This document shows positions 37,582 to 51,005 of a DNA stretch of 64,000 bases, piece after piece. Made by a program: the position numbers and the translations under genes. A model generated the notes under the pieces. The model was not told the DNA's origin, searched no databases, and worked only from the letters and a program-made list of their open reading frames with translations. Numbering within the stretch: the stretch's first letter is position 1; each line of letters begins with the position of its first letter. The stretch comes from an uncultured Sphingomonadales bacterium. Its GTDB lineage: Bacteria; Pseudomonadota; Alphaproteobacteria; Sphingomonadales; Sphingomonadaceae. The DNA lies in assembly GCA_937870585.1 (NCBI GenBank), contig CALMZE010000007.1, positions 29,064 to 93,063 on the forward strand, read 5' to 3'.

Positions 37582-38556
37582 ATGAAGGCTGTCTTTGTGT
37601 GCAAGCCATCGAAAAGGATCATCGGCGTGGTTGGTGAAAATCTCAGACATTTCGGCGGACTGCCCGTAGCGGATTTTCGCGGTGAGGGGACGCCTCTCGA
37701 TTTTACCCGGACCTGCCCAAGGCTGCGCTGCGATTATGATGACGAGCAGGATCTGCGCGATCTGCTGACGCTGTTGCTCGATCAGCCCTCTCTGCCAAGC
37801 CTGACCGCGCTGGTGTTCGGCCTCTGGCTTGAAAATGGCGAAAGCTATGACGTGTCGCCGCAGCCCGTGCTCGATATGCTGGTGGCCTTCAAGTTGCGAC
37901 TGCCCGCGCTCAAGGCCCTGTTCATGGGCGATATTGTCTCCGAAGAGAATGAAATCTCGTGGATCAAGCAGGGCGATTATGCCGGCATCTGGGCTGCCTT
38001 CCCCCGGCTGGAAGAGATCATTGTGCGCGGCGGCGCTGATCTGTCTCTGGGGACGATCAACCATCAATCTCTGCGCAAACTCGCCATTCAGACGGGCGGG
38101 CTGGATCAGATGGTTGTGCGCGAGGCGCTGTCCGCCAATGCCCCGATTGAGCATTTCGAGCTCTGGCTGGGGGATGAGGGCTATGGGGCCAACACTTCGG
38201 TTGCCGATTTCGAGGCGCTGTTCGCGGGTCATCTCTTTCCCCGCCTGCACACGCTGGCGCTGCGCAATGCACAATATACTGACGCCATTGCGTCTGCCCT
38301 CGTGGCCAGCCCGCTGATTGACCGGATCAAGCGGCTTGATCTCTCCAAGGGCACGCTGACCGATGCGGGCGCGCAGGCGCTGATCTCTTCAGGCAAGCTT
38401 GGGCAGCTCGAACAGATCGATATCAGCTTCCACTATGTCTCTCCTGAGATGGTGAGCGAACTCTCCCGCCACACGCCCAAGCTGATCGCTGATGATCCTC
38501 AAACGCCAGACGATTGGGATGGCGAGACGCATTATTACGTCGCCGTGTCTGAGTGA
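37582..38556 (+). CDS. STM4015 family leucine-rich-repeat protein
   Basis: LKALFMGD...EISWI, LELWLG..YG, LDLSKGTLTDAGA, C-terminal YVAVSE. Confidence 0.8.
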   Translation: MKAVFVCKPSKRIIGVVGENLRHFGGLPVADFRGEGTPLDFTRTCPRLRCDYDDEQDLRDLLTLLLDQPSLPSLTALVFGLWLENGESYDVSPQPVLDMLVAFKLRLPALKALFMGDIVSEENEISWIKQGDYAGIWAAFPRLEEIIVRGGADLSLGTINHQSLRKLAIQTGGLDQMVVREALSANAPIEHFELWLGDEGYGANTSVADFEALFAGHLFPRLHTLALRNAQYTDAIASALVASPLIDRIKRLDLSKGTLTDAGAQALISSGKLGQLEQIDISFHYVSPEMVSELSRHTPKLIADDPQTPDDWDGETHYYVAVSE

Positions 38557-42788: not shown

Positions 42789-43481
42789 TCAGCGCGCGCG
42801 TTCTTCCATCACGGCCCGCACCTTGGGGTTGGCTTCCTTTGCAATGTCCGCCGGAGTGATCGATTGCGGATCAAACGCAATCTGGCGTGAAACCGGCACA
42901 CCGTTCCAGCGCACACCCACCGGATCATATAGTTCGGGAAGTTCCTGAATCCCGCTGCCTGCCACATCAATCCAGGATGTGACCACCAGCCCCGGCGGCA
43001 AGTCCGCAATGCCGCTGCAACCGGACAGGTCCAGCACGGCCACTTCGCCGAGATTTTCGGGAAGCGCCTTCAGCGACCCGCAGCCAGACAGGTTCAACCT
43101 GCCGCCCCGCATGTTCAGATCGTCCGGCAAGGCGGTCAGCGCGGTGCAGCCCGACAGATCGAGGAACGCCACATCCATCCCGGCTGGCAGGCGCGTCAGG
43201 CCTGTGCAGCGGGCAAGAGACAGCGATCCGGTGTGAATGCCATCCGGCAAGTCACGCAGTTGCGCACAATCAGAGAGATTGACCGCAATATCGGCCGCAG
43301 CCGGAATCTCCGCTTTCGCAAACGCGCTGCCTTGCGCATTCATCATGCGCTTTCCGGCGGGCGTATTGCGCGGCGGCGGGGGTCCGGGGGTGCGGCGCGC
43401 TGTTTGCGCTGCCGAAGCAGGGGCAGCGGCGGGTGAACCGCTGCCGCCGAAAAACCGGGCAATGGTCTTGAAGATGGACAT
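42789..43481 (-). CDS. Leucine-rich-repeat protein
   Basis: About five LxLxxCxxLxxLP repeats; ends IAFDPQSIT...EANPKVRAVMEERAR. Confidence 0.8.
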   Translation of the reverse strand: MSIFKTIARFFGGSGSPAAAPASAAQTARRTPGPPPPRNTPAGKRMMNAQGSAFAKAEIPAAADIAVNLSDCAQLRDLPDGIHTGSLSLARCTGLTRLPAGMDVAFLDLSGCTALTALPDDLNMRGGRLNLSGCGSLKALPENLGEVAVLDLSGCSGIADLPPGLVVTSWIDVAGSGIQELPELYDPVGVRWNGVPVSRQIAFDPQSITPADIAKEANPKVRAVMEERAR

Positions 43482-43511
43482 GGCTTCTCCTTCGTCTGCG
43501 CCGAGCGGCAT

Positions 43512-46500
43512 TCAAAACTGGGTAACGCGGGCGAGATGCGGGTCAACAAGGAATAGGCGGCCAAATTGGTCAGCCAACAATACCGTGCCACTTGAGGCCG
43601 TGCGTGCGTGGGCTCTCGCCGGGACGCGCGCGAGCGGTATCAACTGGGTTTCCGCATGATGATGGAGTGAAAATTCCCGTTTGTCTTGCCCATCAGTTCG
43701 GATCACCGTCACCAACTTCCCGTCAACGGGGACGTTCGGATCGGGCGCGATCAAGACAGGCCGCCCGAAATCGCAGGGCATGAACTGGTCAAACACGCCC
43801 GCCTCAGCGCGCGGTTGCATCAGTTTGCGCGCGCGGGCCTCTCCGTCTTCGCTCCACAGCGAATAGGCCATGATGATGGTCTGGTCAGACAAGGCGCTAA
43901 ACGTCCGGCCCACCGTTTGGCTCCCCCAGGCCCAGGTGACTGTGGGAAGCAGCTCACCCGCGTCCGCAGGCTGCCCCTGCCGATAGCCATGGCAGATTGC
44001 TGTGGTGAGATGCCCACGCTCCTGCAAGCGCCACCATTCGGTCACGCCCTGCCGATCAGGCGAGACATCGATGGTGATCCAGGACGACGCATCCTCTTCA
44101 TGCAGAAAGGCAATAGCGCGCAGACGATCCGTGAGGGCGCACGACCAGAGAAACACAACGCGCGGCATGGCAGCGCACAGGGCAGCCAGATCGAGCGCGC
44201 CAATCTCGCTTCCCACTTGCACCAGCCAAGCCAGTTCGGATGTGACATCATGATGCGCGAGCAGGTTGACACGCCCGACCGGATGGAGCGAACGGCGCGC
44301 GGTATCGAAGCGCGTGATGCGTGTCAGTCCGTCCTTTTCGCGTTGCAGGATCAGGGCATGGGCACCACCGCCCACCGCCACCAACGCAGACACGTCACTC
44401 ATCGCCTGCCGCCAGATCACAAGACCATTGGCATCGATCAACTCAAGCTGCTGATTGTCTCGCCACGCCAAAATCAGGCCTGTGCCAAGGACGCAAGCCG
44501 CCAAGACCGGTGACGAGGTGACGAGCGGCTCGGGCACGAGCCAGTGACGCCGGGCAGGCGGCGCGGCGCGAAAGAGTTTGCGCAATGCGCCGAGATCACG
44601 GGCCAGCACCTTATGCCCGCTCTCTTGCAGCAAATGGACCAACTGATCCACATCCTGCGGGTTCAATTGGGCCGAAGCCTGACGCAGCACAGTGTTGGCC
44701 AGCCCTTCGAGCAGGGCAGACCCGGCCCCGTCCCAGAAGCCCATTTGCTCATCCGACCGGCGCGCTGCCAGACGGCGCATCGCGGCGAGCAGAGCAAGCA
44801 GGGCTTCTCCCTCTCCCTCGCGCAACATCAGGCTGCGCAAGTCCGCCAGTGCATCAGCGAGCAGCGGATCACCAACATGGGGCAGCGTGCGCGGAAATCC
44901 GGCAAGCTGGGCTGAATCGCCCGGCGCATGGCACAAGAGCGTGCGCGCCAGCGGTTCGGGCGCGAAGTTCCCCGGCTCAATTGACTTCATAGTCTCTTCT
45001 AGCCAGCCCCGGCGCAGATCGAGCAAGGCGCGGTCCACTCCAGCCTGACGCGCCAGATCATCGGTTACCTGCAAGGCCCGCAGCGGCTGACCGGATGCAA
45101 CCAGCGTGTCGGTCCAGCCTCTCAGCACAAAAGCATGATATTCGGCATCACCATTCCGGCTTTGCGCGGCCAGTTGCTCAAAACAGCCGGACCGATGCGC
45201 CAGCGCCAGCGCAGCCTCCTGCTTGCCAGCCGTATAGAGCAGCCGGATGGTCAGCACCGGATCGACTTTCGCCCCCAATGCCAGCCGAATGGCCTCTTCC
45301 ATCATGTCACCGCGTTCCAGCAATCGGACGGCGGCATCATTCTGTGCCAGAAGCTGCGAACGGATATAGGCCGCGCGCTTCATATCGCCTTCGGATTCGA
45401 GCTGTGTGGCCAGATCCTCATAAGTCTGGCGCATCTGCCAGCTCAGGTTCTCCGGCAGGACGGGCACTTCAAACGCGTCGCCTCCCAGATCGAAATCGAG
45501 TCGTGCCCGCGCAGCCGGAAGCTGACGGGGATAGCGGCGCGGGAGTTTGCGCGCCCCCTGCCCCCCACCCAACCGGATGGCCAGCCGCAAGGCATCGTCA
45601 ATCATGCCGCGCGCAGCCAGTGCCTTCACCTGCTGCGCCCGCGCCTCCAACTGCCTTGTGAGCGATCCGAACGGGTTCTTCCACGCCAGCCAGCCCAGCA
45701 GATTGTCGAGCAGGCCGGGCGTGCTCGGCTGGTGCGCAGCAGTTTCAGCCTTATCCTCTGCGCCCGCCAGTAGCCCGCGCACGAAACGGGTGAGGACGAA
45801 GACCAACACCATCAGCGAGATCGGTGCGCTCCGCGAGATAGCGGATAGGAGCAGAAGGAGACCGGCAGCATAGAGCACGAAGCGCAGCAGCCTGCCCATC
45901 GCAGGCAGAAGCCCGAGACCACCGCGCGCCCAGCCGACGAAGGAGCGGCGGCGACCCAAACTCTCCTTCAGATCCGAAAACGGGTCTGCCCGGCGACTGG
46001 GGACCAGTTCGACAAGGCTTGCACTTGCCTCTGCCTTAACCGGCACCAGCACCGCGCTGGGCGCGGCCGATTGGCGAGCCTCAACCCGGTCAGCATGACG
46101 CGCGACAGACTCTGGCCGCACGCCGGGATGCAGCATCACCTGCGGCATGTCCCATAAGAGCGAGAGCGGAAGCCTCTCCAGCACGTCCAGCGCAATGCGC
46201 TTCGCCCCTCCCCCCCACCAGATATCGACCGCGCGGACCGCACCGCCCAGCACAGGCGCGTCAACCGCGCGCCGCGCCGCATGGCTGGCGAGCGTCCCCG
46301 GCGCGCTCGCGACCAGCGGCAGAGCGGCGGGATGGTCAAGCCCGTGCGCCTTGGGTGGGCCATCGAACAGGATCACCAGCAGTTCACGTTGATGTGCGTC
46401 CGATCCGATCAAGCCCCGCCGCATCTCGCGCACTTGATCGCGCAGCCGGGCGAGCGGCGGCAGGCTGCCACCCGGCGGACGGATGAATGCCAGCGCCTGA

Positions 46501-46589
46501 CAGGGCTGATCAGAGGGGAAAACGGCAACCTCTGGCAGGGCGCGCGGTAAAGTCTCACGCGCGCGGATGGCGGCCTGACTGTGCCGCAT
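43512..46589 (-). CDS. bpX6-like large protein of MoxR-vWA-beta-propeller system
   Basis: TM segment, DDALRLAIRLG...TYEDL...RAAYI...LLER helical repeats, beta-rich C-terminus; TGATG coupling. Confidence 0.65.
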   Translation of the reverse strand: MRHSQAAIRARETLPRALPEVAVFPSDQPCQALAFIRPPGGSLPPLARLRDQVREMRRGLIGSDAHQRELLVILFDGPPKAHGLDHPAALPLVASAPGTLASHAARRAVDAPVLGGAVRAVDIWWGGGAKRIALDVLERLPLSLLWDMPQVMLHPGVRPESVARHADRVEARQSAAPSAVLVPVKAEASASLVELVPSRRADPFSDLKESLGRRRSFVGWARGGLGLLPAMGRLLRFVLYAAGLLLLLSAISRSAPISLMVLVFVLTRFVRGLLAGAEDKAETAAHQPSTPGLLDNLLGWLAWKNPFGSLTRQLEARAQQVKALAARGMIDDALRLAIRLGGGQGARKLPRRYPRQLPAARARLDFDLGGDAFEVPVLPENLSWQMRQTYEDLATQLESEGDMKRAAYIRSQLLAQNDAAVRLLERGDMMEEAIRLALGAKVDPVLTIRLLYTAGKQEAALALAHRSGCFEQLAAQSRNGDAEYHAFVLRGWTDTLVASGQPLRALQVTDDLARQAGVDRALLDLRRGWLEETMKSIEPGNFAPEPLARTLLCHAPGDSAQLAGFPRTLPHVGDPLLADALADLRSLMLREGEGEALLALLAAMRRLAARRSDEQMGFWDGAGSALLEGLANTVLRQASAQLNPQDVDQLVHLLQESGHKVLARDLGALRKLFRAAPPARRHWLVPEPLVTSSPVLAACVLGTGLILAWRDNQQLELIDANGLVIWRQAMSDVSALVAVGGGAHALILQREKDGLTRITRFDTARRSLHPVGRVNLLAHHDVTSELAWLVQVGSEIGALDLAALCAAMPRVVFLWSCALTDRLRAIAFLHEEDASSWITIDVSPDRQGVTEWWRLQERGHLTTAICHGYRQGQPADAGELLPTVTWAWGSQTVGRTFSALSDQTIIMAYSLWSEDGEARARKLMQPRAEAGVFDQFMPCDFGRPVLIAPDPNVPVDGKLVTVIRTDGQDKREFSLHHHAETQLIPLARVPARAHARTASSGTVLLADQFGRLFLVDPHLARVTQF

Positions 46590-48547
46590 CACATGTCCTC
46601 CGTGCAGCGGAGTTGCGCTGCACTGTTGCAAAGTTCTTCCAGCGAGAGGCGCTCTGTGTGCGATGTTCCGTGAGCGGGCTTGAAATTGTAGCGGAGCAGA
46701 TCTTGCGGCACGCCCTGCCTGTCACAGGCGACTGCCCAGAATACGCCATTGATGCGCAGGAGCGCGGCAATCCGACCTGCATCCGCGCCCAGATCCAGCG
46801 TCGCCTTATCTCGCGTTCGCCGCCCGCCAGAAAAGCGGCAGGATTCGATCACGCCCTCCCCGCCGAGCGCCGCATCAGACCAGATCTGCGCCTGCACACC
46901 ATTATTCTTGGCCACTGCATCGATGACACGCTCGACCGGCTCCACCTGAAATTGAAGCGCAGATGGCGACAGCGGGTGGTTGTAATGGCTATCGCTTTGC
47001 AGAACCGACCATTGGCCCGGCTGAATGGCGCAGGCCAGCGCGTTCTTTTCTGCGGCCCAGGCTATCCCGTGGAACGTCTTTGGCAATCTGGTACAATCGG
47101 GCAGGTAGTAGCTCGCCGATTCTCCTTCATTGCGCTTGATCACCTGCATGAACGCATGGCCACTTTGCATATAGCCCGCGATCTGGTCTGCCCCGGTGGA
47201 CAGCAAGATGCGGCGCGCTGAATATTTCGCTGAAAAGCGCCACGTCCAGCGATCAATGGCCTGCAGCACATAAGTCTGGCCGGAAGTTGAGTAAAATTCG
47301 ACGTCTCTCACACTATTCATACTGGGCAGTGCATAAGGGGAGCGGTTGTCGAACAGATGCTGGCTCGGCACGGCGTAGGACAGGATGGATGGTGCGTCGT
47401 GATTCTGGCCAGGCTTCAACTCAAACCGAAAATAGACAAGCCGCTGCTCGCCCTGCTGGACCTGATGATAGAGCACAAAAAGTTGATCATGGCGTACGGC
47501 AATCCCCGCCAGCAAGATGTCCGCTGGCAAGGGCAAGAACCAGTGCGCCTGCTGGGCACCGGCGGCGTTCACCTTCAGGATAAGCAGCCCGTACGCCACG
47601 CGCACCGCGCGATAATTCCCCGCCGGAGCAGACAGATAAAGCGGTTCCCATCCCGGCATTCCTGCGACGCTGTGGCTCTCCTGCCCCCCATCCCGCACGC
47701 GGACAGGGGCGGGAAAGGGCTTCTCCAGTGCGGACAGGCATTTTGCATCTGGCGCGAGTTCGATCCGCGCTGAATGGAGGCTGTGGCCGCCGCGCCTGAC
47801 GGTCAGCCGGGCCTCACGCGGCGTATCCCGCATTGGCGGCTGGAGGATGAAAGACAAAGCGTTGCGCTGCCTTGTGATCGCCGGAGCTTCGCCGCCCCAA
47901 TCGCGGGCAGACCCGATCACCCAATCCGCGACCTCTGGGCTCTTTGGCCGCGGTCTTTCCCCCGTGGCTTCGGCCCAGACCGCGCGCGCGTCTGCCAGAT
48001 CCTCATCATGGACTTCGCGAAACGCCCCAGACCGCAGGAAGCGCTTGATGCTGTTGACCGAAATATCGGTGAACCAGACAGCGCCCTCCGCCCGCGGCAG
48101 GAAGCACCAGTGAAACGCCGCACCCCGTTTTGCTGCCACGCGCGCCAGAAAGAACAGCGCCGCGAGCGCCACCAATCGGCCATGGCCCAATATATCCGGC
48201 CCTGCTGACAACACGACGCGCCACACAGGCCGCGTGCCGGGATCCGCATAGATGCGATCATGATAGAGTGTTTCAGATTCGGCCAGCCGCCGCAGAAATT
48301 CAAGTGGGGCCTCGGTCCGCAGCAGCAGCTCGCTTTGCAGGATATGATCAATCTCACCATGCAGCGTCAGGCCGCCCAAACCTTCAAATTCGCCTTGTTC
48401 GGCAAACTCCCGCTGCTCCAGCCCGCGTGCGAGCGGTTCGAACTGGATCAGTTGGCCGCACAGCACATCGGCCAGCGGGCGGGACAGCAGCGCGAGCACG
48501 GGCAGAAAGGGCGCATAGGCCGGAGGGAGCGAATCGGGCGCGCTCAT
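46589..48547 (-). CDS. Degenerate vWA-like MoxR partner with beta-rich C-terminus
   Basis: GEFEGLGGL...SELLL..E.PLEFLRR..ESE.LY pre-vWA motif; VLSAGPDILG where MIDAS DxSxS is expected. Confidence 0.6.
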   Translation of the reverse strand: MSAPDSLPPAYAPFLPVLALLSRPLADVLCGQLIQFEPLARGLEQREFAEQGEFEGLGGLTLHGEIDHILQSELLLRTEAPLEFLRRLAESETLYHDRIYADPGTRPVWRVVLSAGPDILGHGRLVALAALFFLARVAAKRGAAFHWCFLPRAEGAVWFTDISVNSIKRFLRSGAFREVHDEDLADARAVWAEATGERPRPKSPEVADWVIGSARDWGGEAPAITRQRNALSFILQPPMRDTPREARLTVRRGGHSLHSARIELAPDAKCLSALEKPFPAPVRVRDGGQESHSVAGMPGWEPLYLSAPAGNYRAVRVAYGLLILKVNAAGAQQAHWFLPLPADILLAGIAVRHDQLFVLYHQVQQGEQRLVYFRFELKPGQNHDAPSILSYAVPSQHLFDNRSPYALPSMNSVRDVEFYSTSGQTYVLQAIDRWTWRFSAKYSARRILLSTGADQIAGYMQSGHAFMQVIKRNEGESASYYLPDCTRLPKTFHGIAWAAEKNALACAIQPGQWSVLQSDSHYNHPLSPSALQFQVEPVERVIDAVAKNNGVQAQIWSDAALGGEGVIESCRFSGGRRTRDKATLDLGADAGRIAALLRINGVFWAVACDRQGVPQDLLRYNFKPAHGTSHTERLSLEELCNSAAQLRCTEDM

Positions 48548-48966
48548 ACGGAAACCGGGTCTCGGAGATGGACAGGATAAGCATCGACATCGCAGCTGAA
48601 CGATCTGGAGCCAAAGCGCGGCACGATGATTACGGGCGGAGCCCAGCCCGCATGGCGCGCAAAATCTTTCAGCAATTCGGCCTGCGCGGAATCGGGCACA
48701 TCAAGCGCGCTGCCAACCGGAAACCACCATCCGCTTTGCGCCTGATAGAGCGGAATCGCCCCTGCGATACGCGGCAGGACGGGCTGATCCTCTCCCTGCA
48801 AGGGACGACCGAACAGCGCAGCCCAATCTACGCCGACTGCAAAGGGCAGGCTGCGTGCGAAAGCCGGCTTGGCAAGCAGCGCTGCATCCAGCCTTGCGGA
48901 AGCCTCATCACCGATCAGCAGCAGGGCATCGACCGCCTGCACCGGATCAACCCGGCGCCAGTGCAT
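48544..48966 (-). CDS. bpX5-like small protein
   Basis: MHWRRVD...LP..AGAIPLY...WW.PVG..LDVP; coupled to MoxR gene. Confidence 0.55.
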   Translation of the reverse strand: MHWRRVDPVQAVDALLLIGDEASARLDAALLAKPAFARSLPFAVGVDWAALFGRPLQGEDQPVLPRIAGAIPLYQAQSGWWFPVGSALDVPDSAQAELLKDFARHAGWAPPVIIVPRFGSRSFSCDVDAYPVHLRDPVSV

Positions 48967-50165
48967 CAGGCGTCCGCACCCAAGGCGGACTGTCCCGCCG
49001 CACCTGTCCCCTTGTGTCCGGCGGCAAGGACAGCCTCGATGCTGGTGTGGAGCGCCCGCACATCCTGCGGCATGGCATCCGGCGAGAACGCAGCCTCGAT
49101 CCGCGTCAGCATCGTCTCCAGCCGGACCAGCCAATGTTCAAACAGACGATCCGTCTCCAAAGCGGGGCGCGCCTGCAACAGCTGAGCGGCCTGCTCCGCC
49201 AGCAAGGCGGCATGGGCAGCCAGCCCATGCGTCGCCTGCGCCACGCTGCTCGTCAGAACGGGATTACGGCTCTGCTCCAGTTCGACATGGAGCAGATCGC
49301 GCACCTCCTGCTGTCGCTCGCGCGACTGGACAAGATAGGTGACCGGCCAGAGATCCTCCGCGCCCGCCTTCATGTTGCCACGCAGCAGAGCCGCCGCCGC
49401 AATCAGCTTGAGCCCCTTGACCAGCTTGCGGTCTGAAATCGGCACGCCGGTCAGGCGGATTTTGCGGACGATATGCGCATAGTCCTCCCTTACGCCTCCA
49501 ACATCAACAGTGAGGATCGCCGCCTGAAGCCGCGCCAGCACCGACCGGTCGAGCGGCGGAACCGGCGCGTTGCCCGCCAGCGTTTCACGCCACCCGGCAT
49601 CGAGCAGCGCAGGAAGCTGATCCTCCCCAACCGGATCAACGAACATCGTCACCAGAAACCGATCAGCAAACGCCGCCAATGCAGCGTCTTCGGGCAATTC
49701 GTTCGATGCTGCGATGCAGGAGATCAGCGGCACCTGCGTCTGGAACTGGCCCCGCCGATAGGTGCGCTCGTTGAGGATTTTGAGCAGCGAGTTGAGAATG
49801 GCGGTCGAACCCAGAAAAATTTCATCGAGAAAGGCGACCTCGGCTTCGGGCAACATCCCGCTCGTTACCGGTCGCACCTCGCCGTCGCGTAACGCCGCCA
49901 GATCGAGCGCACCGAACAACTCGCCCGGCTCTGTGAAGCGTCCGATCAGATATTCGAAGGATCGCGCATCCACGGCCCGCGCCATGGCCTGCACCGCCGC
50001 CGATTTGCCGGTCCCCGGCGGGCCGATCAGCAACACATGTTCGCGCGTCAGCAAACCCAGCATGACCAGCTCAAGCAGCGCGCGCCGCGATACGAATTGC
50101 CCCGCCAATGCATCAAGATGCGCATTAACCTGTTCAATTGCGCCCGAAATTTCACCTTGATCCAT
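48966..50165 (-). CDS. MoxR/RavA family AAA+ ATPase
   Basis: REHVLLIGPPGTGKS, YLIGRFTEPGELFG, FLDEIF, ILNERTY, ASNELP, DRF. Confidence 0.92.
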   Translation of the reverse strand: MDQGEISGAIEQVNAHLDALAGQFVSRRALLELVMLGLLTREHVLLIGPPGTGKSAAVQAMARAVDARSFEYLIGRFTEPGELFGALDLAALRDGEVRPVTSGMLPEAEVAFLDEIFLGSTAILNSLLKILNERTYRRGQFQTQVPLISCIAASNELPEDAALAAFADRFLVTMFVDPVGEDQLPALLDAGWRETLAGNAPVPPLDRSVLARLQAAILTVDVGGVREDYAHIVRKIRLTGVPISDRKLVKGLKLIAAAALLRGNMKAGAEDLWPVTYLVQSRERQQEVRDLLHVELEQSRNPVLTSSVAQATHGLAAHAALLAEQAAQLLQARPALETDRLFEHWLVRLETMLTRIEAAFSPDAMPQDVRALHTSIEAVLAAGHKGTGAAGQSALGADA

Positions 50166-50357: not shown

Positions 50358-51005
50358 TCAGCCACCAAGATGCTGGCTGATGGCCCTATCCGTCAATCCG
50401 ATACCACGGCAGCAAAACCAGATGGCATCACGCTGCAATGCTTCGCCGTCATAAATCTCTGACGCGTTGGACAAGGCGCAAACCATATTCAGCATCGTCC
50501 CCAGATGCTCGTGAAACATGGCCAGATTTTTGGGACGCAATGACGGACCAACAATATCTCCCGAAGCGCGCGCCGCTTCCATGGCCACAAGGATCTGGTG
50601 GTGCATCTTGCGCTGTGCCCGACGATAGACAAGGCTGGCATAGCCCCCTTCTCCAGCGAGGCTGGCCAGAAGCATCCGCAAGCCCTCATGCATTCGGCCT
50701 TGCGTGCCAGACATGGAAATCTCGATATAGTTGCGGATCGAATTGATCAGCCCGGCCGTGCTCGGCTCCGGCAAGGGCATCTGCCTGTAGTTGGCATCCT
50801 GTTCGCGGATCATTTGGCGCAGAACGGCCCGATACAGCGCCAGCTTCGAAGGATAGTGGCGATAGACCAGCGCTTCGGACACCTTCGCTTCCGAGGCGAT
50901 CTTTTGGGTCTTTGCCCCTTCATAGCCCGCTTCGGCAAACACCTTGCGCGCGGCCTCCAGGATAAGGCTCCGGCGTTCGGCGGAAGGGATGCGCTTTCTG
51001 GGCAT
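50358..51005 (-). CDS. TetR/AcrR family regulator
   Basis: ILEAARKVFAEAGYEGAKTQKIASEAKVSEALVYRHY. Confidence 0.92.
   Translation of the reverse strand: MPRKRIPSAERRSLILEAARKVFAEAGYEGAKTQKIASEAKVSEALVYRHYPSKLALYRAVLRQMIREQDANYRQMPLPEPSTAGLINSIRNYIEISMSGTQGRMHEGLRMLLASLAGEGGYASLVYRRAQRKMHHQILVAMEAARASGDIVGPSLRPKNLAMFHEHLGTMLNMVCALSNASEIYDGEALQRDAIWFCCRGIGLTDRAISQHLGG

What the first reader, a model, noticed from the sequence alone, without database searches (positions are those of the whole stretch)
43512..50165. MoxR-vWA-beta-propeller (bpX5/bpX6)-type ternary system in a unicellular sphingomonad, with degenerate MIDAS
Seen: coupled genes for a RavA-like ATPase, a 140-aa protein, a 652-aa protein with a pre-vWA motif but VLSAGP in place of DxSxS, and a 1025-aa protein with a TM segment, helical repeats and a beta-rich tail. 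Knowledge: MoxR-vWA-beta-propeller ternary systems were predicted computationally as conflict systems enriched in multicellular bacteria (Aravind group, 2020) and I know of no experimental test. Inference: a threat-sensing chaperone/effector system in an unexpected host, with a metal-independent vWA adaptor.
Basis: partly seen in the sequence, partly recalled or inferred. Interest (0 to 1): 0.62.

Follow-up and report, generated by a model that had tools for sequence, protein, structure and literature searches.

The report
Divergent MoxR–vWA–propeller four-gene cassette
A sphingomonad carries a horizontally acquired four-gene cassette (an ATP-driven motor, a small adaptor and two large propeller-bearing proteins) that is a divergent member of a computationally predicted, still untested family of bacterial "MoxR-vWA-beta-propeller" sensor/conflict systems, so it is real and correctly named but not a new kind of system.

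Summary
Window 43512-50165 (minus strand) carries four translationally coupled genes:
- A: a RavA-like MoxR ATPase. It scores 259 bits on Pfam bpMoxR.
- B: a 140-aa protein, a divergent bpX5.
- C: a 652-aa protein with a ViaA-type pre-vWA motif, a vWA-like alpha/beta domain whose MIDAS loop reads S-A-G-P-D, and a roughly 7-bladed propeller.
- D: a 1025-aa protein with an N-terminal globular domain, a TM hairpin, a TPR solenoid and a roughly 7-bladed propeller.

The A-B-C-D order is kept in all 17 related loci long enough to show it (Sphingomonadales, Caulobacterales). It equals the order bpMoxR-bpX5-(C-like)-bpX6 protein seen around distant homologues. The D family aligns to a canonical bpX6 protein at 99% HHalign probability.

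The cassette is therefore a divergent alphaproteobacterial member of the beta-propeller ternary systems of Kaur et al. 2020. The Pfam bpX5 and bpX6 models miss it. Degenerate MIDAS and unicellular hosts were already noted in that paper.

The cassette is very patchy: 1 of 51 genomes in the genus and 3 of 301 in the order. Its flanks are ordinary and differ at every locus, so there is no defence-island signal.

Function is inferred only. I read it as an ATP-driven sensor and remodelling switch. Verdict: new member of a known kind, moderate-to-low interest.

The parts
48966..50165 (-). Gene A: MoxR-class AAA+ ATPase (399 aa), RavA-like. It lacks RavA's LARA and C-terminal domains. Walker A is GPPGTGKS (residues 48-55), Walker B is LDEI (113-116), sensor-1 is ASNE (153) and the Arg finger candidate is DRF (168).
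   Evidence: PF20030 bpMoxR 259 bits, AAA_5, AAA_lid_8. NCBIfam RavA 143 bits, below its cut-off. 35% identity to E. coli RavA, which itself scores 191 bits on PF20030. Motifs located. It is the only PF20030 match in the genome.
48544..48966 (-). Gene B: 140-aa conserved small protein, a divergent bpX5. Its start overlaps A's stop (TGATG).
   Evidence: Present between A and C in 19 of 19 loci. 3 of 20 family members hit PF19921 bpX5 at E down to 8e-4. HHalign of the B family against canonical bpX5 gives P 0.003 over 103 collinear columns. Against the intermediate L056 148-aa protein it gives P 1.7e-4, and that protein against bpX5 gives P 2.2e-4. Canonical bpX5 genes occupy the same position.
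46589..48547 (-). Gene C: 652-aa 'vWA component'. It has an N-terminal helical segment, a pre-vWA motif, a vWA-like alpha/beta domain and a C-terminal beta-propeller.
   Evidence: 85 homologue clusters, none with a Pfam domain. AlphaFold2 model with pLDDT 84. Profile search finds 1216 representatives at E<1e-3.
48248..48403 (-). C residues 49-100: ViaA-type pre-vWA motif (GLxxxGEIxxILQSELLLRTEAPLEFLRRLAESETLYH). It is the most conserved part of C.
   Evidence: HHalign against the ViaA pre-vWA segment: P 6.6e-6, probability 85%. Mean pairwise identity is 69%, against 30-50% for the rest of C.
48176..48208 (-). C residues 114-124: the loop that replaces MIDAS, S-A-G-P-D-I-L-G-H-G-R. The family consensus is SxGPxxLGHGR and the superfamily consensus is DxGPxxLGxxR.
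   Evidence: Aligned in register with D-T-S-G-S of ViaA. Column counts: S in 32 of 34 family members, D in 40 of 52 superfamily members. G116, P117, G121 and R124 are (near-)invariant.
47708..48247 (-). C residues 101-280: vWA-like alpha/beta domain. The strand/helix order is beta-alpha-beta-(beta)-alpha-alpha-beta-beta, then a hairpin and a helix.
   Evidence: DSSP string of the model. Foldseek against BFVD hits two phage 'VWFA domain-containing' proteins at E 4.8e-7 and 1.7e-6 over 216-217 columns. The query range was not shown, so placing these hits on this domain is inferred from the aligned length. The domain alone gives no HHalign signal to the ViaA vWA domain (P 0.42).
46592..47650 (-). 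C residues 300-652: beta-propeller with 28 strands, about seven blades. It is the most variable folded domain of the cassette.
   Evidence: Foldseek against PDB: WD40, BamB and methylamine-dehydrogenase propellers, E 2e-7, probability 1.0. Strand count. Mean pairwise identity 30%.
43512..46589 (-). Gene D: 1025-aa third component.
   Evidence: AlphaFold2 model with pLDDT 75. HHalign of the D family against the canonical bpX6-bearing 961-aa protein of L055: probability 99.1%, E 1.5e-18 over 517 columns. Foldseek against PDB: Apaf-1, VPS15, Raptor and IFT80, which are solenoid plus WD40 architectures.
46149..46532 (-). D residues 20-147: beta-rich N-terminal globular domain, probably a very divergent bpX6.
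   Evidence: Model pLDDT 70-87. HHalign against the 275-aa protein at the same position in L056: P 3.6e-4. That protein hits PF19922 bpX6 at 22 bits, E 1.3e-4, below the cut-off. Direct comparison with bpX6 is negative (P 0.42).
45759..45896 (-). D residues 232-277: two hydrophobic helices forming a TM hairpin. They are present only in the window's subclade.
   Evidence: Hydropathy scan and alignment. Model helices at 233-251 and 255-274.
44565..45452 (-). D residues 380-675: TPR-like alpha-solenoid.
   Evidence: Weak TPR_GEMI5 and IFT-TPR Pfam hits in 7 of 24 family members.
43515..44552 (-). D residues 680-1025: beta-propeller with 28 strands, about seven blades.
42789..43511 (-). Gene E: 240-aa leucine-rich-repeat protein that starts directly after D's stop. 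It is a neighbour, possibly a strain-specific accessory, and not part of the conserved cassette.
   Evidence: NCBIfam XopL-type LRR at E 2e-8, below the cut-off. No homologue at any other locus.
50358..51005 (-). TetR-family regulator lying 192 bp upstream of A on the same strand. It is a neighbour and is not conserved with the cassette.
   Evidence: PF00440 at E 2e-15. Absent from the other loci.

Best explanation
**What it is.** A self-contained, horizontally acquired four-gene cassette. It is a divergent alphaproteobacterial branch of the MoxR-vWA-beta-propeller ternary systems.

**What is shown.**
- A is an intact RavA-like AAA+ ATPase.
- C is a ViaA-like adaptor. Its pre-vWA motif is strongly conserved, its MIDAS loop is replaced by a conserved non-metal-binding SxGPxxLGHGR loop, and its C-terminus is a variable propeller of about seven blades.
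- D combines an N-terminal globular domain, a TPR solenoid and a second propeller. In this subclade it also has a membrane hairpin.
- B is a small bpX5-like subunit.
- The four genes always travel together and nothing else travels with them.

**What is inferred.**
- The MoxR hexamer engages C through the pre-vWA and vWA-like region, as RavA engages ViaA.
- C and D associate, possibly through their propellers.
- The variable propeller and N-terminal surfaces bind a trigger, probably a foreign or stress-derived protein.
- ATP hydrolysis then remodels the C-D(-B) complex. This switches D's N-terminal or membrane-proximal part into an active state. In this strain that would be at the inner membrane.
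- Binding at the vWA site does not depend on a MIDAS metal.

**Confidence.** About 0.85 that it is a member of this system class. About 0.45 that it acts as a threat or invader sensor-switch.
For: **Identity**
- bpMoxR scores 259 bits, against 191 bits for E. coli RavA.
- The gene order A-B-C-D is conserved in 17 of 17 loci. It is identical to bpMoxR-bpX5-(C-like)-bpX6 protein in L063, L055 and L062.
- D aligns to a canonical bpX6 protein at 99.1% probability.
- The C profile reaches 1216 representatives, including bpX6-fused and bpX5-flanked members.
- B links to bpX5.

**Folds**
- Propellers in C and D.
- Solenoid plus WD40 architecture as in Apaf-1, VPS15 and Raptor.
- VWFA-annotated phage proteins match C at E 5e-7.
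- The ViaA pre-vWA motif matches at P 6.6e-6. The combined alignment scores 37.2, against a maximum of 26.1 in 30 column shuffles.

**ATPase:** motifs are intact.

**Accessory, transferred character**
- 1 of 51 genomes in the genus and 3 of 301 in the order carry it.
- Flanks are unrelated between loci.

**Variability pattern:** AAA+ 74%, pre-vWA 69%, C propeller 30%, D N-terminal domain 37%, D linker 29%.

**Literature**
- The architecture matches section 22 of Kaur et al. 2020.
- A 2026 preprint shows genetically that a different MoxR-vWA pathway with divergent beta-propeller sensors (Esr) mediates threat sensing in Actinobacteria.
- One relative fuses a GGDEF output domain to the C-like protein, which fits a signalling switch.
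Against: - No experiment exists for this class, and nothing here tests function.
- PADLOC gives no hit.
- The 112 genes flanking 17 loci are ordinary metabolic, transport and regulatory genes. The 25 most frequent families shown include no integrase, transposase or defence family.
- No recognisable effector domain is present.
- The TM hairpin is absent from most family members, so a membrane effector cannot be the conserved output.
- The vWA-like domain alone has no sequence signal to the ViaA vWA domain (P 0.42), nor to a CoxE-like family. The Foldseek VWFA hits were reported without query ranges.
- The bpX6 assignment of D's N-terminal domain rests on a weak two-step chain.
- Physical contacts between A, B, C and D are assumed by analogy.
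Confidence: 0.6

Rival explanations
1. It is a housekeeping-type RavA-ViaA-like chaperone module. The ATPase and its adaptor mature, insert or remodel a cellular client such as a membrane or respiratory complex. D acts as a scaffold or client, not as a conflict system.
For: - A and C are the closest relatives of RavA and ViaA: 35% identity and a shared pre-vWA motif.
- From general knowledge, MoxR-vWA pairs are mostly assembly chaperones.
- Flanking genes are ordinary metabolic genes.
- There is no effector domain and no PADLOC hit.
Against: - The cassette is present in only 1 of 51 genomes of the genus and 3 of 301 of the order.
- No conserved neighbouring client gene exists.
- The putative binding domains are the most variable parts of the cassette.
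- A housekeeping role would predict vertical inheritance and a conserved partner.
Confidence: 0.2
2. It is a membrane-acting abortive-infection effector system. After activation by MoxR and C, the TM hairpin of D oligomerises and depolarises the membrane, killing the infected cell.
For: - D has a TM hairpin in this strain and its close relatives.
- Kaur et al. describe the variable, membrane-spanning N-terminal region of the third component as a possible effector.
Against: - The hairpin is missing in 15 of the 24 aligned D proteins (the nine that have it are the window, P0086, P0087, P0089-P0092 and L015) and in the canonical example L055.
- If it is an effector, it is a subclade-specific add-on.
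- There is no evidence of toxicity.
Confidence: 0.12
3. It is a non-defensive signalling or sensing module that detects an environmental or cell-envelope cue and relays it, for example to second-messenger or transcriptional outputs.
For: - A relative carries a GGDEF domain on the C-like protein.
- The Esr pathway shows MoxR-vWA acting in signal relay.
- A TetR gene lies upstream here.
Against: - No output domain (kinase, GGDEF or HTH) is found in the window's four proteins.
- TetR is not conserved with the cassette.
Confidence: 0.08

Closest known systems
MoxR-vWA-beta-propeller ternary systems (vWA-MoxR subsystem 4 of Kaur, Burroughs, Iyer & Aravind, eLife 2020, PMC7159879; Pfam bpMoxR PF20030, bpX5 PF19921, bpX6 PF19922)
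   Same: - Same gene order: bpMoxR, small bpX5 protein, vWA-plus-propeller protein, third component.
- The third component has a variable N-terminal globular domain, with or without a TM segment, followed by TPR and a propeller.
- The vWA domain is divergent and has lost MIDAS residues.
- There is no conventional effector.
- D is homologous to a canonical bpX6 protein at 99% probability.
   Different: - The Pfam bpX5 and bpX6 models do not recognise the window's B and D. No canonical bpX5 scored above the cut-off in 401 sampled genomes of the class. This is therefore a separate, divergent alphaproteobacterial branch.
- The first MIDAS Asp, kept in 40 of 52 superfamily members, is Ser here.
- The P-loop is canonical GPPGTGKS, not the GxxxTAKS variant.
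- The models show about 7 blades, whereas the paper describes 'about four'.
- The TM hairpin occurs only in the window's subclade.
RavA-ViaA of Escherichia coli (an experimentally studied MoxR-vWA pair)
   Same: - The ATPase is 35% identical over the AAA+ core and lid. Both score on PF20030.
- C shares ViaA's pre-vWA motif, and its strand-helix register runs into the MIDAS position.
- The adaptor gene lies next to the ATPase gene.
   Different: - There is no LARA domain and no RavA C-terminal domain.
- C has no DxSxS MIDAS motif and carries a propeller that ViaA lacks.
- Two further obligatory genes, B and D, are present.
- Distribution is sporadic rather than lineage-wide.
Esr threat-sensing pathway of Schaalia odontolytica (bioRxiv 10.64898/2026.09.08.750141)
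   Same: A MoxR-vWA pair is coupled to sequence-divergent beta-propeller sensor proteins. This gives experimental support for threat sensing through such a module.
   Different: - Esr is an actinobacterial system with a secreted Ig-repeat filament sensor, a kinase/phosphatase pair, an FHA protein and an Esx output. None of these is present here.
- Homology of components was not tested.
- It is an analogy of logic, not membership.
Solenoid plus WD40 sensor arms of Apaf-1/STAND-type proteins
   Same: D's TPR-plus-propeller half resembles the Apaf-1, VPS15 and Raptor arrangement in Foldseek.
   Different: D has no NTPase domain of its own; the NTPase (MoxR) is supplied in trans. TM-scores are low (0.1-0.2), so the resemblance is architectural only.

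Membership tests
MoxR-vWA-beta-propeller ternary system (Kaur et al. 2020) | MoxR AAA+ ATPase of the bpMoxR type encoded in the cassette | tested here: met
   PF20030 scores 259 bits over 184 of 205 profile positions. This is higher than E. coli RavA at 191 bits and similar to a MoxR next to a C-like gene at 248 bits. The model is not exclusive: it matches in 12 of 14 control genomes.
MoxR-vWA-beta-propeller ternary system (Kaur et al. 2020) | [quoted passage not shown] | tested here: met
   The propeller is supported by Foldseek against PDB at E 2e-7. For the vWA part: the ViaA pre-vWA motif matches at P 6.6e-6, the MIDAS strand and helix alpha-1 align in register, and phage VWFA proteins match at E 5e-7 over 217 columns. 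The vWA part is weaker than the propeller part, because the domain alone gives no sequence signal.
MoxR-vWA-beta-propeller ternary system (Kaur et al. 2020) | Third component with a variable N-terminal globular region, with or without a TM segment, then TPR and a beta-propeller | tested here: met
   AlphaFold2 model and Foldseek. HHalign to the canonical bpX6-bearing protein gives 99.1% probability. The N-terminal region and linker are among the most variable parts.
MoxR-vWA-beta-propeller ternary system (Kaur et al. 2020) | bpX5 small protein and bpX6 domain recognised by the Pfam models | tested here: inconclusive
   The window's B and D give no Pfam hit. 3 of 20 B-family members hit bpX5 at E about 1e-3. 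HHalign of B against bpX5 gives P 0.003. D's N-terminal domain reaches bpX6 only through an intermediate. Position and size match canonical cassettes.
MoxR-vWA-beta-propeller ternary system (Kaur et al. 2020) | Role in biological conflict | not testable with these tools
   Only circumstantial evidence is available: patchy distribution and variable binding domains. There is no defence-island context and no PADLOC hit.
RavA-ViaA | RavA LARA domain and C-terminal domain; ViaA with an intact DxSxS MIDAS | tested here: not met
   A lacks PF20265 and PF12592, which RavA has. C has S-A-G-P-D at the MIDAS position.
Canonical metal-binding vWA domain | MIDAS motif DxSxS | tested here: not met
   S114, G116 and D118 occupy the D, S and S positions. 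The whole superfamily has G at the first Ser position (51 of 52). The distal Thr and Asp MIDAS residues could not be mapped.
Catalogued anti-phage defence systems (PADLOC-DB 2.0) | Significant match of any component to a defence-system model | tested here: not met
   Only generic P-loop hits for A, with E no better than 1e-4 over about 35 residues. B, C, D and E give nothing.

The most novel reading that the evidence does not exclude
This alphaproteobacterial branch may be a pattern-recognition machine split across separate proteins. On this reading it is invisible to current Pfam and defence-finder models and has replaced the metal-dependent MIDAS site by a conserved SxGPxxLGHGR loop. Two hypervariable seven-bladed propellers act as receptors, and an ATPase supplied in trans acts as the switch. 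That would make it functionally analogous to NLR/Apaf-1 sensors but built from MoxR-vWA parts, with a membrane-hairpin output in this strain.
Probability: 0.25. Interest if true: 0.65.

Novelty: new member of a known kind. Interest (0 to 1): 0.38.

Why it matters
The beta-propeller class is the least understood of the four MoxR-vWA ternary systems. It has no recognisable effector, and I found no published experiment on it.

This work adds the following:
- The real unit has four genes in a fixed order, not three.
- Pfam's bpX5 corresponds to the small separate protein, and bpX6 to the N-terminal domain of the third component.
- The ATPase-adaptor pair is specifically RavA/ViaA-like and shares the pre-vWA motif.
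- A whole alphaproteobacterial branch escapes current models.

The compact cassette of about 6.7 kb occurs in non-pathogenic, culturable relatives such as Sphingomonas and Caulobacter. That would make it a convenient entry point for the first functional test of the class. It does not overturn anything known.

Tried and rejected
- **Direct library scans.** Pfam, NCBIfam and PADLOC scans of B, C and D gave no hits. Scanning all 34 members of the C family gave none either.
- **C profile against PDB sequences.** Only noise came back: viral NS3 proteases at E of 0.027 or worse.
- **HHalign of the C N-terminal part against a CoxE-like vWA family.** The family is 391 aa long and came from the same order. 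The result was negative (P about 0.1). The pre-vWA motif is therefore ViaA-type, not CoxE-type.
- **HHalign of the C vWA-like domain alone against the ViaA vWA domain alone.** Negative (P 0.42). The sequence signal sits in the pre-vWA motif.
- **HHalign of D's N-terminal domain directly against bpX6.** Negative.
- **Broadening the ViaA profile.** The attempt returned only close enterobacterial ViaA sequences (76% identity or more), so the ViaA template is shallow.
- **Empty-site analysis.** Neither flank is conserved in 15 genomes of the same genus, so insertion boundaries could not be defined.
- **LRR gene as a recurrent accessory.** Rejected. E has no homologue at other loci, and the LRR gene next to L056 is unrelated.
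- **E as the 'repeat protein' of the neighbouring STM4011-4015 cassette.** Rejected. That protein is 37582-38556 and ends in Glu.
- **Defence-island context.** Not found.
- **Tools.** Structure models cannot be cropped, so a clean domain-level fold search of the vWA-like region was not possible.

Full report
**1. Observation**

Four ORFs lie head-to-tail on the minus strand:
- A, 48966-50165, 399 aa
- B, 48544-48966, 140 aa
- C, 46589-48547, 652 aa
- D, 43512-46589, 1025 aa

The stop and start codons overlap or abut: TGATG at A/B, ATGA at B/C, TGATG at C/D. A fifth ORF, E (42789-43511, 240 aa, leucine-rich repeats), begins directly after D's TGA.

**2. The ATPase (A)**

- A scores 259 bits on Pfam PF20030 (bpMoxR). 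It also matches AAA_5 and AAA_lid_8.
- Its best NCBIfam model is RavA, at 143 bits, far below the equivalog cut-off.
- It is 35% identical to E. coli RavA over the AAA+ core and lid.
- It lacks RavA's LARA and C-terminal domains.
- PF20030 is not exclusive. RavA itself scores 191 bits, and the model matches in 12 of 14 control genomes. A scores higher than RavA, and about the same as a MoxR found beside a distant C-like gene (248 bits).
- Walker A (GPPGTGKS), Walker B (LDEI), sensor-1 and an Arg finger candidate are all intact.
- A is the only PF20030 match in the genome.

**3. Conservation of the cassette**

C has 85 homologue clusters, all unannotated, from Sphingomonadales and Caulobacterales. 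Nineteen genome loci were recovered with the C profile. They come from Sphingomonas, Sphingobium, Allosphingosinicella, Caulobacter, Hellea and Hyphomonas. All carry A, B and C in this order. All 17 loci with enough DNA also carry D. Neither E nor TetR recurs anywhere. The unit is therefore four genes.

**4. Protein C**

*Model.* The AlphaFold2 model (34-sequence alignment, pLDDT 84) shows:
- N-terminal helices
- a less confident segment at residues 49-100
- an alpha/beta domain at about 101-280
- 28 beta-strands from 305 to 648, which corresponds to about seven four-stranded blades

*Propeller.* Foldseek against PDB returns WD40, BamB and methylamine-dehydrogenase propellers (E 2e-7, probability 1.0).

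*Evidence on the vWA-like N-terminal half.*
- Residues about 48-100 (GLTLHGEIDHILQSELLLRTEAPLEFLRRLAESETLYH) align with the ViaA segment that immediately precedes its vWA domain ([41 protein letters not shown]). HHalign gives P 6.6e-6 and probability 85%.
- The full N-terminal profile aligns collinearly onward through ViaA's MIDAS strand and helix alpha-1. The score is 37.2 (P 2.5e-4), against a maximum of 26.1 in 30 column-shuffled controls.
- Foldseek against BFVD ranks two phage 'VWFA domain-containing' proteins third and fifth (E 4.8e-7 and 1.7e-6, 216-217 aligned columns). This length fits the N-terminal half, not the propeller of about 350 residues. The tool does not print query ranges, so that placement is an inference.
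- The strand and helix order in the model is compatible with a trimmed vWA fold. This is my reading of the DSSP string.

*Evidence against.*
- The alpha/beta domain alone gives no HHalign signal to ViaA's vWA domain (P 0.42).
- It gives none to a CoxE-like vWA family from the same order.
- A profile search of PDB sequences gave only noise.

I conclude that C is a ViaA-like adaptor with a highly divergent vWA-like domain. The propeller is certain. The vWA domain is probable.

**5. The MIDAS position**

In the register fixed by the ViaA alignment, D-T-S-G-S corresponds to S114-A-G-P-D118. Column counts are:

| Set | Pattern |
|---|---|
| Alphaproteobacterial family (34 sequences) | S (32/34) - x - G (34/34) - P (34/34) - x - x - L - G (34/34) - H - G - R (34/34) |
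| Wider superfamily (52 sequences) | D (40/52) - x - G (51/52) - P (47/52) - x - x - L - G (52/52) - x - x - R (52/52) |

The two MIDAS serines are lost throughout the superfamily. The first aspartate is additionally lost in this branch. The loop is strongly conserved, so it is functional, but it is not a canonical metal site. Kaur et al. already state that a subset of vWA domains in the FtsH and beta-propeller systems lack one or both aspartates.

**6. Link to the named family**

A profile of C searched against 1.84 billion representatives finds 1216 proteins at E < 1e-3. The distant proteins, about 600 aa long, match the N-terminal 300 positions. Their neighbourhoods are:

| Locus | Gene order |
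|---|---|
| L063 | bpMoxR (405 aa), bpX5 (152 aa), C-like protein with a GGDEF fusion (779 aa), bpX6 protein (927 aa) |
| L055 | bpX5 (92 bits), C-like (601 aa), 961-aa protein with N-terminal bpX6 (108 bits) |
| L062 | bpX5, C-like, bpX6 protein |
| L054 | bpX5, then a C-like protein fused to bpX6 |
| L056, L061 and the contig (intermediates) | bpMoxR, small protein, C-like, large protein, without bpX hits |

This is exactly the window's gene order.

- The D family aligns to the canonical 961-aa bpX6 protein with 99.1% probability (E 1.5e-18, 517 columns). It aligns to the L056 TPR-propeller protein with E 5e-31.
- B aligns full-length to bpX5 at P 0.003. It aligns to the intermediate 148-aa protein at P 1.7e-4, and that protein aligns to bpX5 at P 2.2e-4. 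Three of 20 B-family members hit PF19921 directly, with E down to 8e-4.
- D's N-terminal domain reaches bpX6 only through the L056 275-aa protein (P 3.6e-4). That protein scores 22 bits on bpX6. The direct comparison is negative.

So bpX5 is the small protein and bpX6 is the N-terminal domain of the third component. The window's versions lie beyond the reach of the Pfam models. Consistent with this, no canonical bpX5 scored above the cut-off in 401 sampled genomes of the class.

**7. Protein D**

The model (24 sequences, pLDDT 75) shows:
- a beta-rich globular domain at residues 20-147
- a disordered linker
- two hydrophobic helices at 233-274
- further helices, then a second disordered stretch at 341-378
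- an alpha-solenoid at 380-673
- 28 strands from 682 to 1024

Foldseek returns Apaf-1, VPS15, Raptor and IFT80, which are solenoid-plus-WD40 proteins, and many WD40 propellers. The TM hairpin is present only in the window's subclade: the window, P0086, P0087, P0089-P0092 and L015. It is absent from the other 15 aligned family members and from canonical L055. [quoted passage not shown]

**8. Distribution and context**

- The C family is found in 3 of 301 genomes sampled across the order and in 1 of 51 genomes of the genus, namely the window's own genome.
- The two other positive genomes in the family correspond to a Sphingomonas contig and an 'uncultured Erythrobacter' contig.
- Flanks differ at every locus.
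- The window's own flanks are absent from 15 congeners.
- The 112 flanking genes of 17 loci are mainly TonB receptors, oxidoreductases, dehydrogenases and two-component regulators. The 25 most frequent families shown include no integrase, transposase or defence family. PADLOC finds nothing.
- The cassette is therefore accessory and horizontally mobile, but it is not in recognisable defence islands.
I saw its radical-SAM and sulfatase hits. Its repeat protein is 37582-38556 and ends in Glu. It is unrelated to this system and is not gene E.

**9. Variability**

Mean pairwise identity across 16 cassettes:

| Region | Identity |
|---|---|
| A, AAA+ core | 74% |
| A, C-terminal half | 61% |
| C, pre-vWA motif | 69% |
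| C, vWA-like domain | 50% |
| D, helical region (293-379) | 48% |
| D, TPR | 47% |
| C, N-terminal helix (1-48) | 45% |
| B | 42% |
| D, propeller | 40% |
| D, N-terminal domain | 37% |
| C, propeller | 30% |
| D, linker | 29% |

The engine and its docking motif are conserved. The propeller of C and the N-terminal part of D vary most. These are the candidates for target or trigger recognition.

**10. Mechanism**

*Shown:*
- an intact ATPase
- a ViaA-like adaptor with a non-canonical but conserved loop at the MIDAS site
- two propellers
- a solenoid
- a membrane hairpin specific to this subclade
- obligatory four-gene linkage

*Inferred, by analogy with RavA-ViaA (general knowledge) and with section 22 of Kaur et al.:*
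- The MoxR hexamer docks C through the pre-vWA and vWA-like region.
- C and D pair, possibly propeller to propeller.
- A trigger bound by the variable surfaces licenses ATP-driven remodelling of the complex.
- The output is D's N-terminal or membrane-proximal part.

A 2026 preprint shows genetically that another MoxR-vWA pathway with divergent propeller sensors (Esr) mediates threat sensing in Actinobacteria. That supports the logic, not membership. A GGDEF fusion in one relative suggests that a signalling output is possible. Rival readings are a housekeeping chaperone, a membrane abortive-infection effector, and a non-defensive signalling module. They are weighed in their own sections.

**11. 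Novelty and verdict**

The system class, its degenerate vWA domain and its occurrence in unicellular proteobacteria were all published in 2020. I found no experimental work on this class; only a Pseudomonas syringae comparative-genomics paper mentions bpX5 and bpX6.

What is new here:
- a divergent alphaproteobacterial branch that current models do not see
- the D-to-S change at the first MIDAS position
- a TM-hairpin insertion specific to this subclade
- the four-gene definition of the unit, with bpX5 and bpX6 assigned to specific genes

Verdict: new member of a known kind. Interest is moderate-to-low (0.38). It is mainly useful as a compact, tractable candidate for the first functional test.

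Noticed in passing
window 42789-43511 (-): A 240-aa leucine-rich-repeat protein starts directly after D's stop codon. It has a Pro/Ala-rich N-terminus, LRRs resembling those of Xanthomonas XopL, XopAE and XopAC (NCBIfam E 2e-8 to 1e-6, far below the cut-offs), and a faint DUF6745 hit. It has no homologue at any other cassette locus, so it may be a strain-specific accessory or just a neighbour.
   Followed up: partly
window 45759-45896 (D residues 232-277); alignment A2: The TM hairpin of D sits in the variable linker and is present only in the window's subclade (window, P0086, P0087, P0089-P0092, L015). The other 15 aligned members and the canonical L055 protein lack it, so it is either an insertion or a repeated loss.
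   Followed up: yes
L063 9001-11340 (P0185): A distant C-like protein in a canonical bpMoxR-bpX5-C-bpX6 cassette carries a C-terminal GGDEF (diguanylate cyclase) domain. This hints that some members signal through c-di-GMP. A phage-type integrase gene lies about 5 kb upstream in that locus.
   Followed up: no
L056 2453-10367: In an intermediate relative the third component is split into two genes: 275 aa (weak bpX6 hit) and 642 aa (TPR plus propeller). An unrelated RNI-type LRR gene sits just upstream of the MoxR gene.
   Followed up: partly
Pfam PF20030 (bpMoxR): The model is not specific at its 27-bit cut-off. E. coli RavA scores 191 bits and 12 of 14 control genomes match. A bpMoxR annotation alone therefore does not identify a beta-propeller ternary system.
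   Followed up: yes
P0084: A 439-aa protein from a eukaryote-labelled set (eukprot) is 69% identical to the first 28% of C. This most likely reflects bacterial sequence in a eukaryotic data set.
   Followed up: no
G000:C116:6615-6878 (own genome, locus L048): Elsewhere, the genome encodes a widely conserved vWA protein in a 416-aa open frame (relatives about 391 aa). It matches VWA_CoxE positions 9-100 and has the MIDAS variant DVGGSMD. 51 of 61 genomes sampled in the order have a VWA_CoxE match, most of them to a protein of this size, and it is unrelated to the cassette.
   Followed up: partly
C/D junctions in L001-L019: In most related loci the D start codon lies 7 nt upstream of the last base of C's stop codon, an 8-nt overlap. 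The window has a 1-nt TGATG overlap. Tight coupling is conserved although the junction sequence is not.
   Followed up: no
It contains two radical-SAM genes and a sulfatase-like gene, and its first gene product ends in ...VAVSE. It is absent from 25 relatives at the DNA level.
   Followed up: partly
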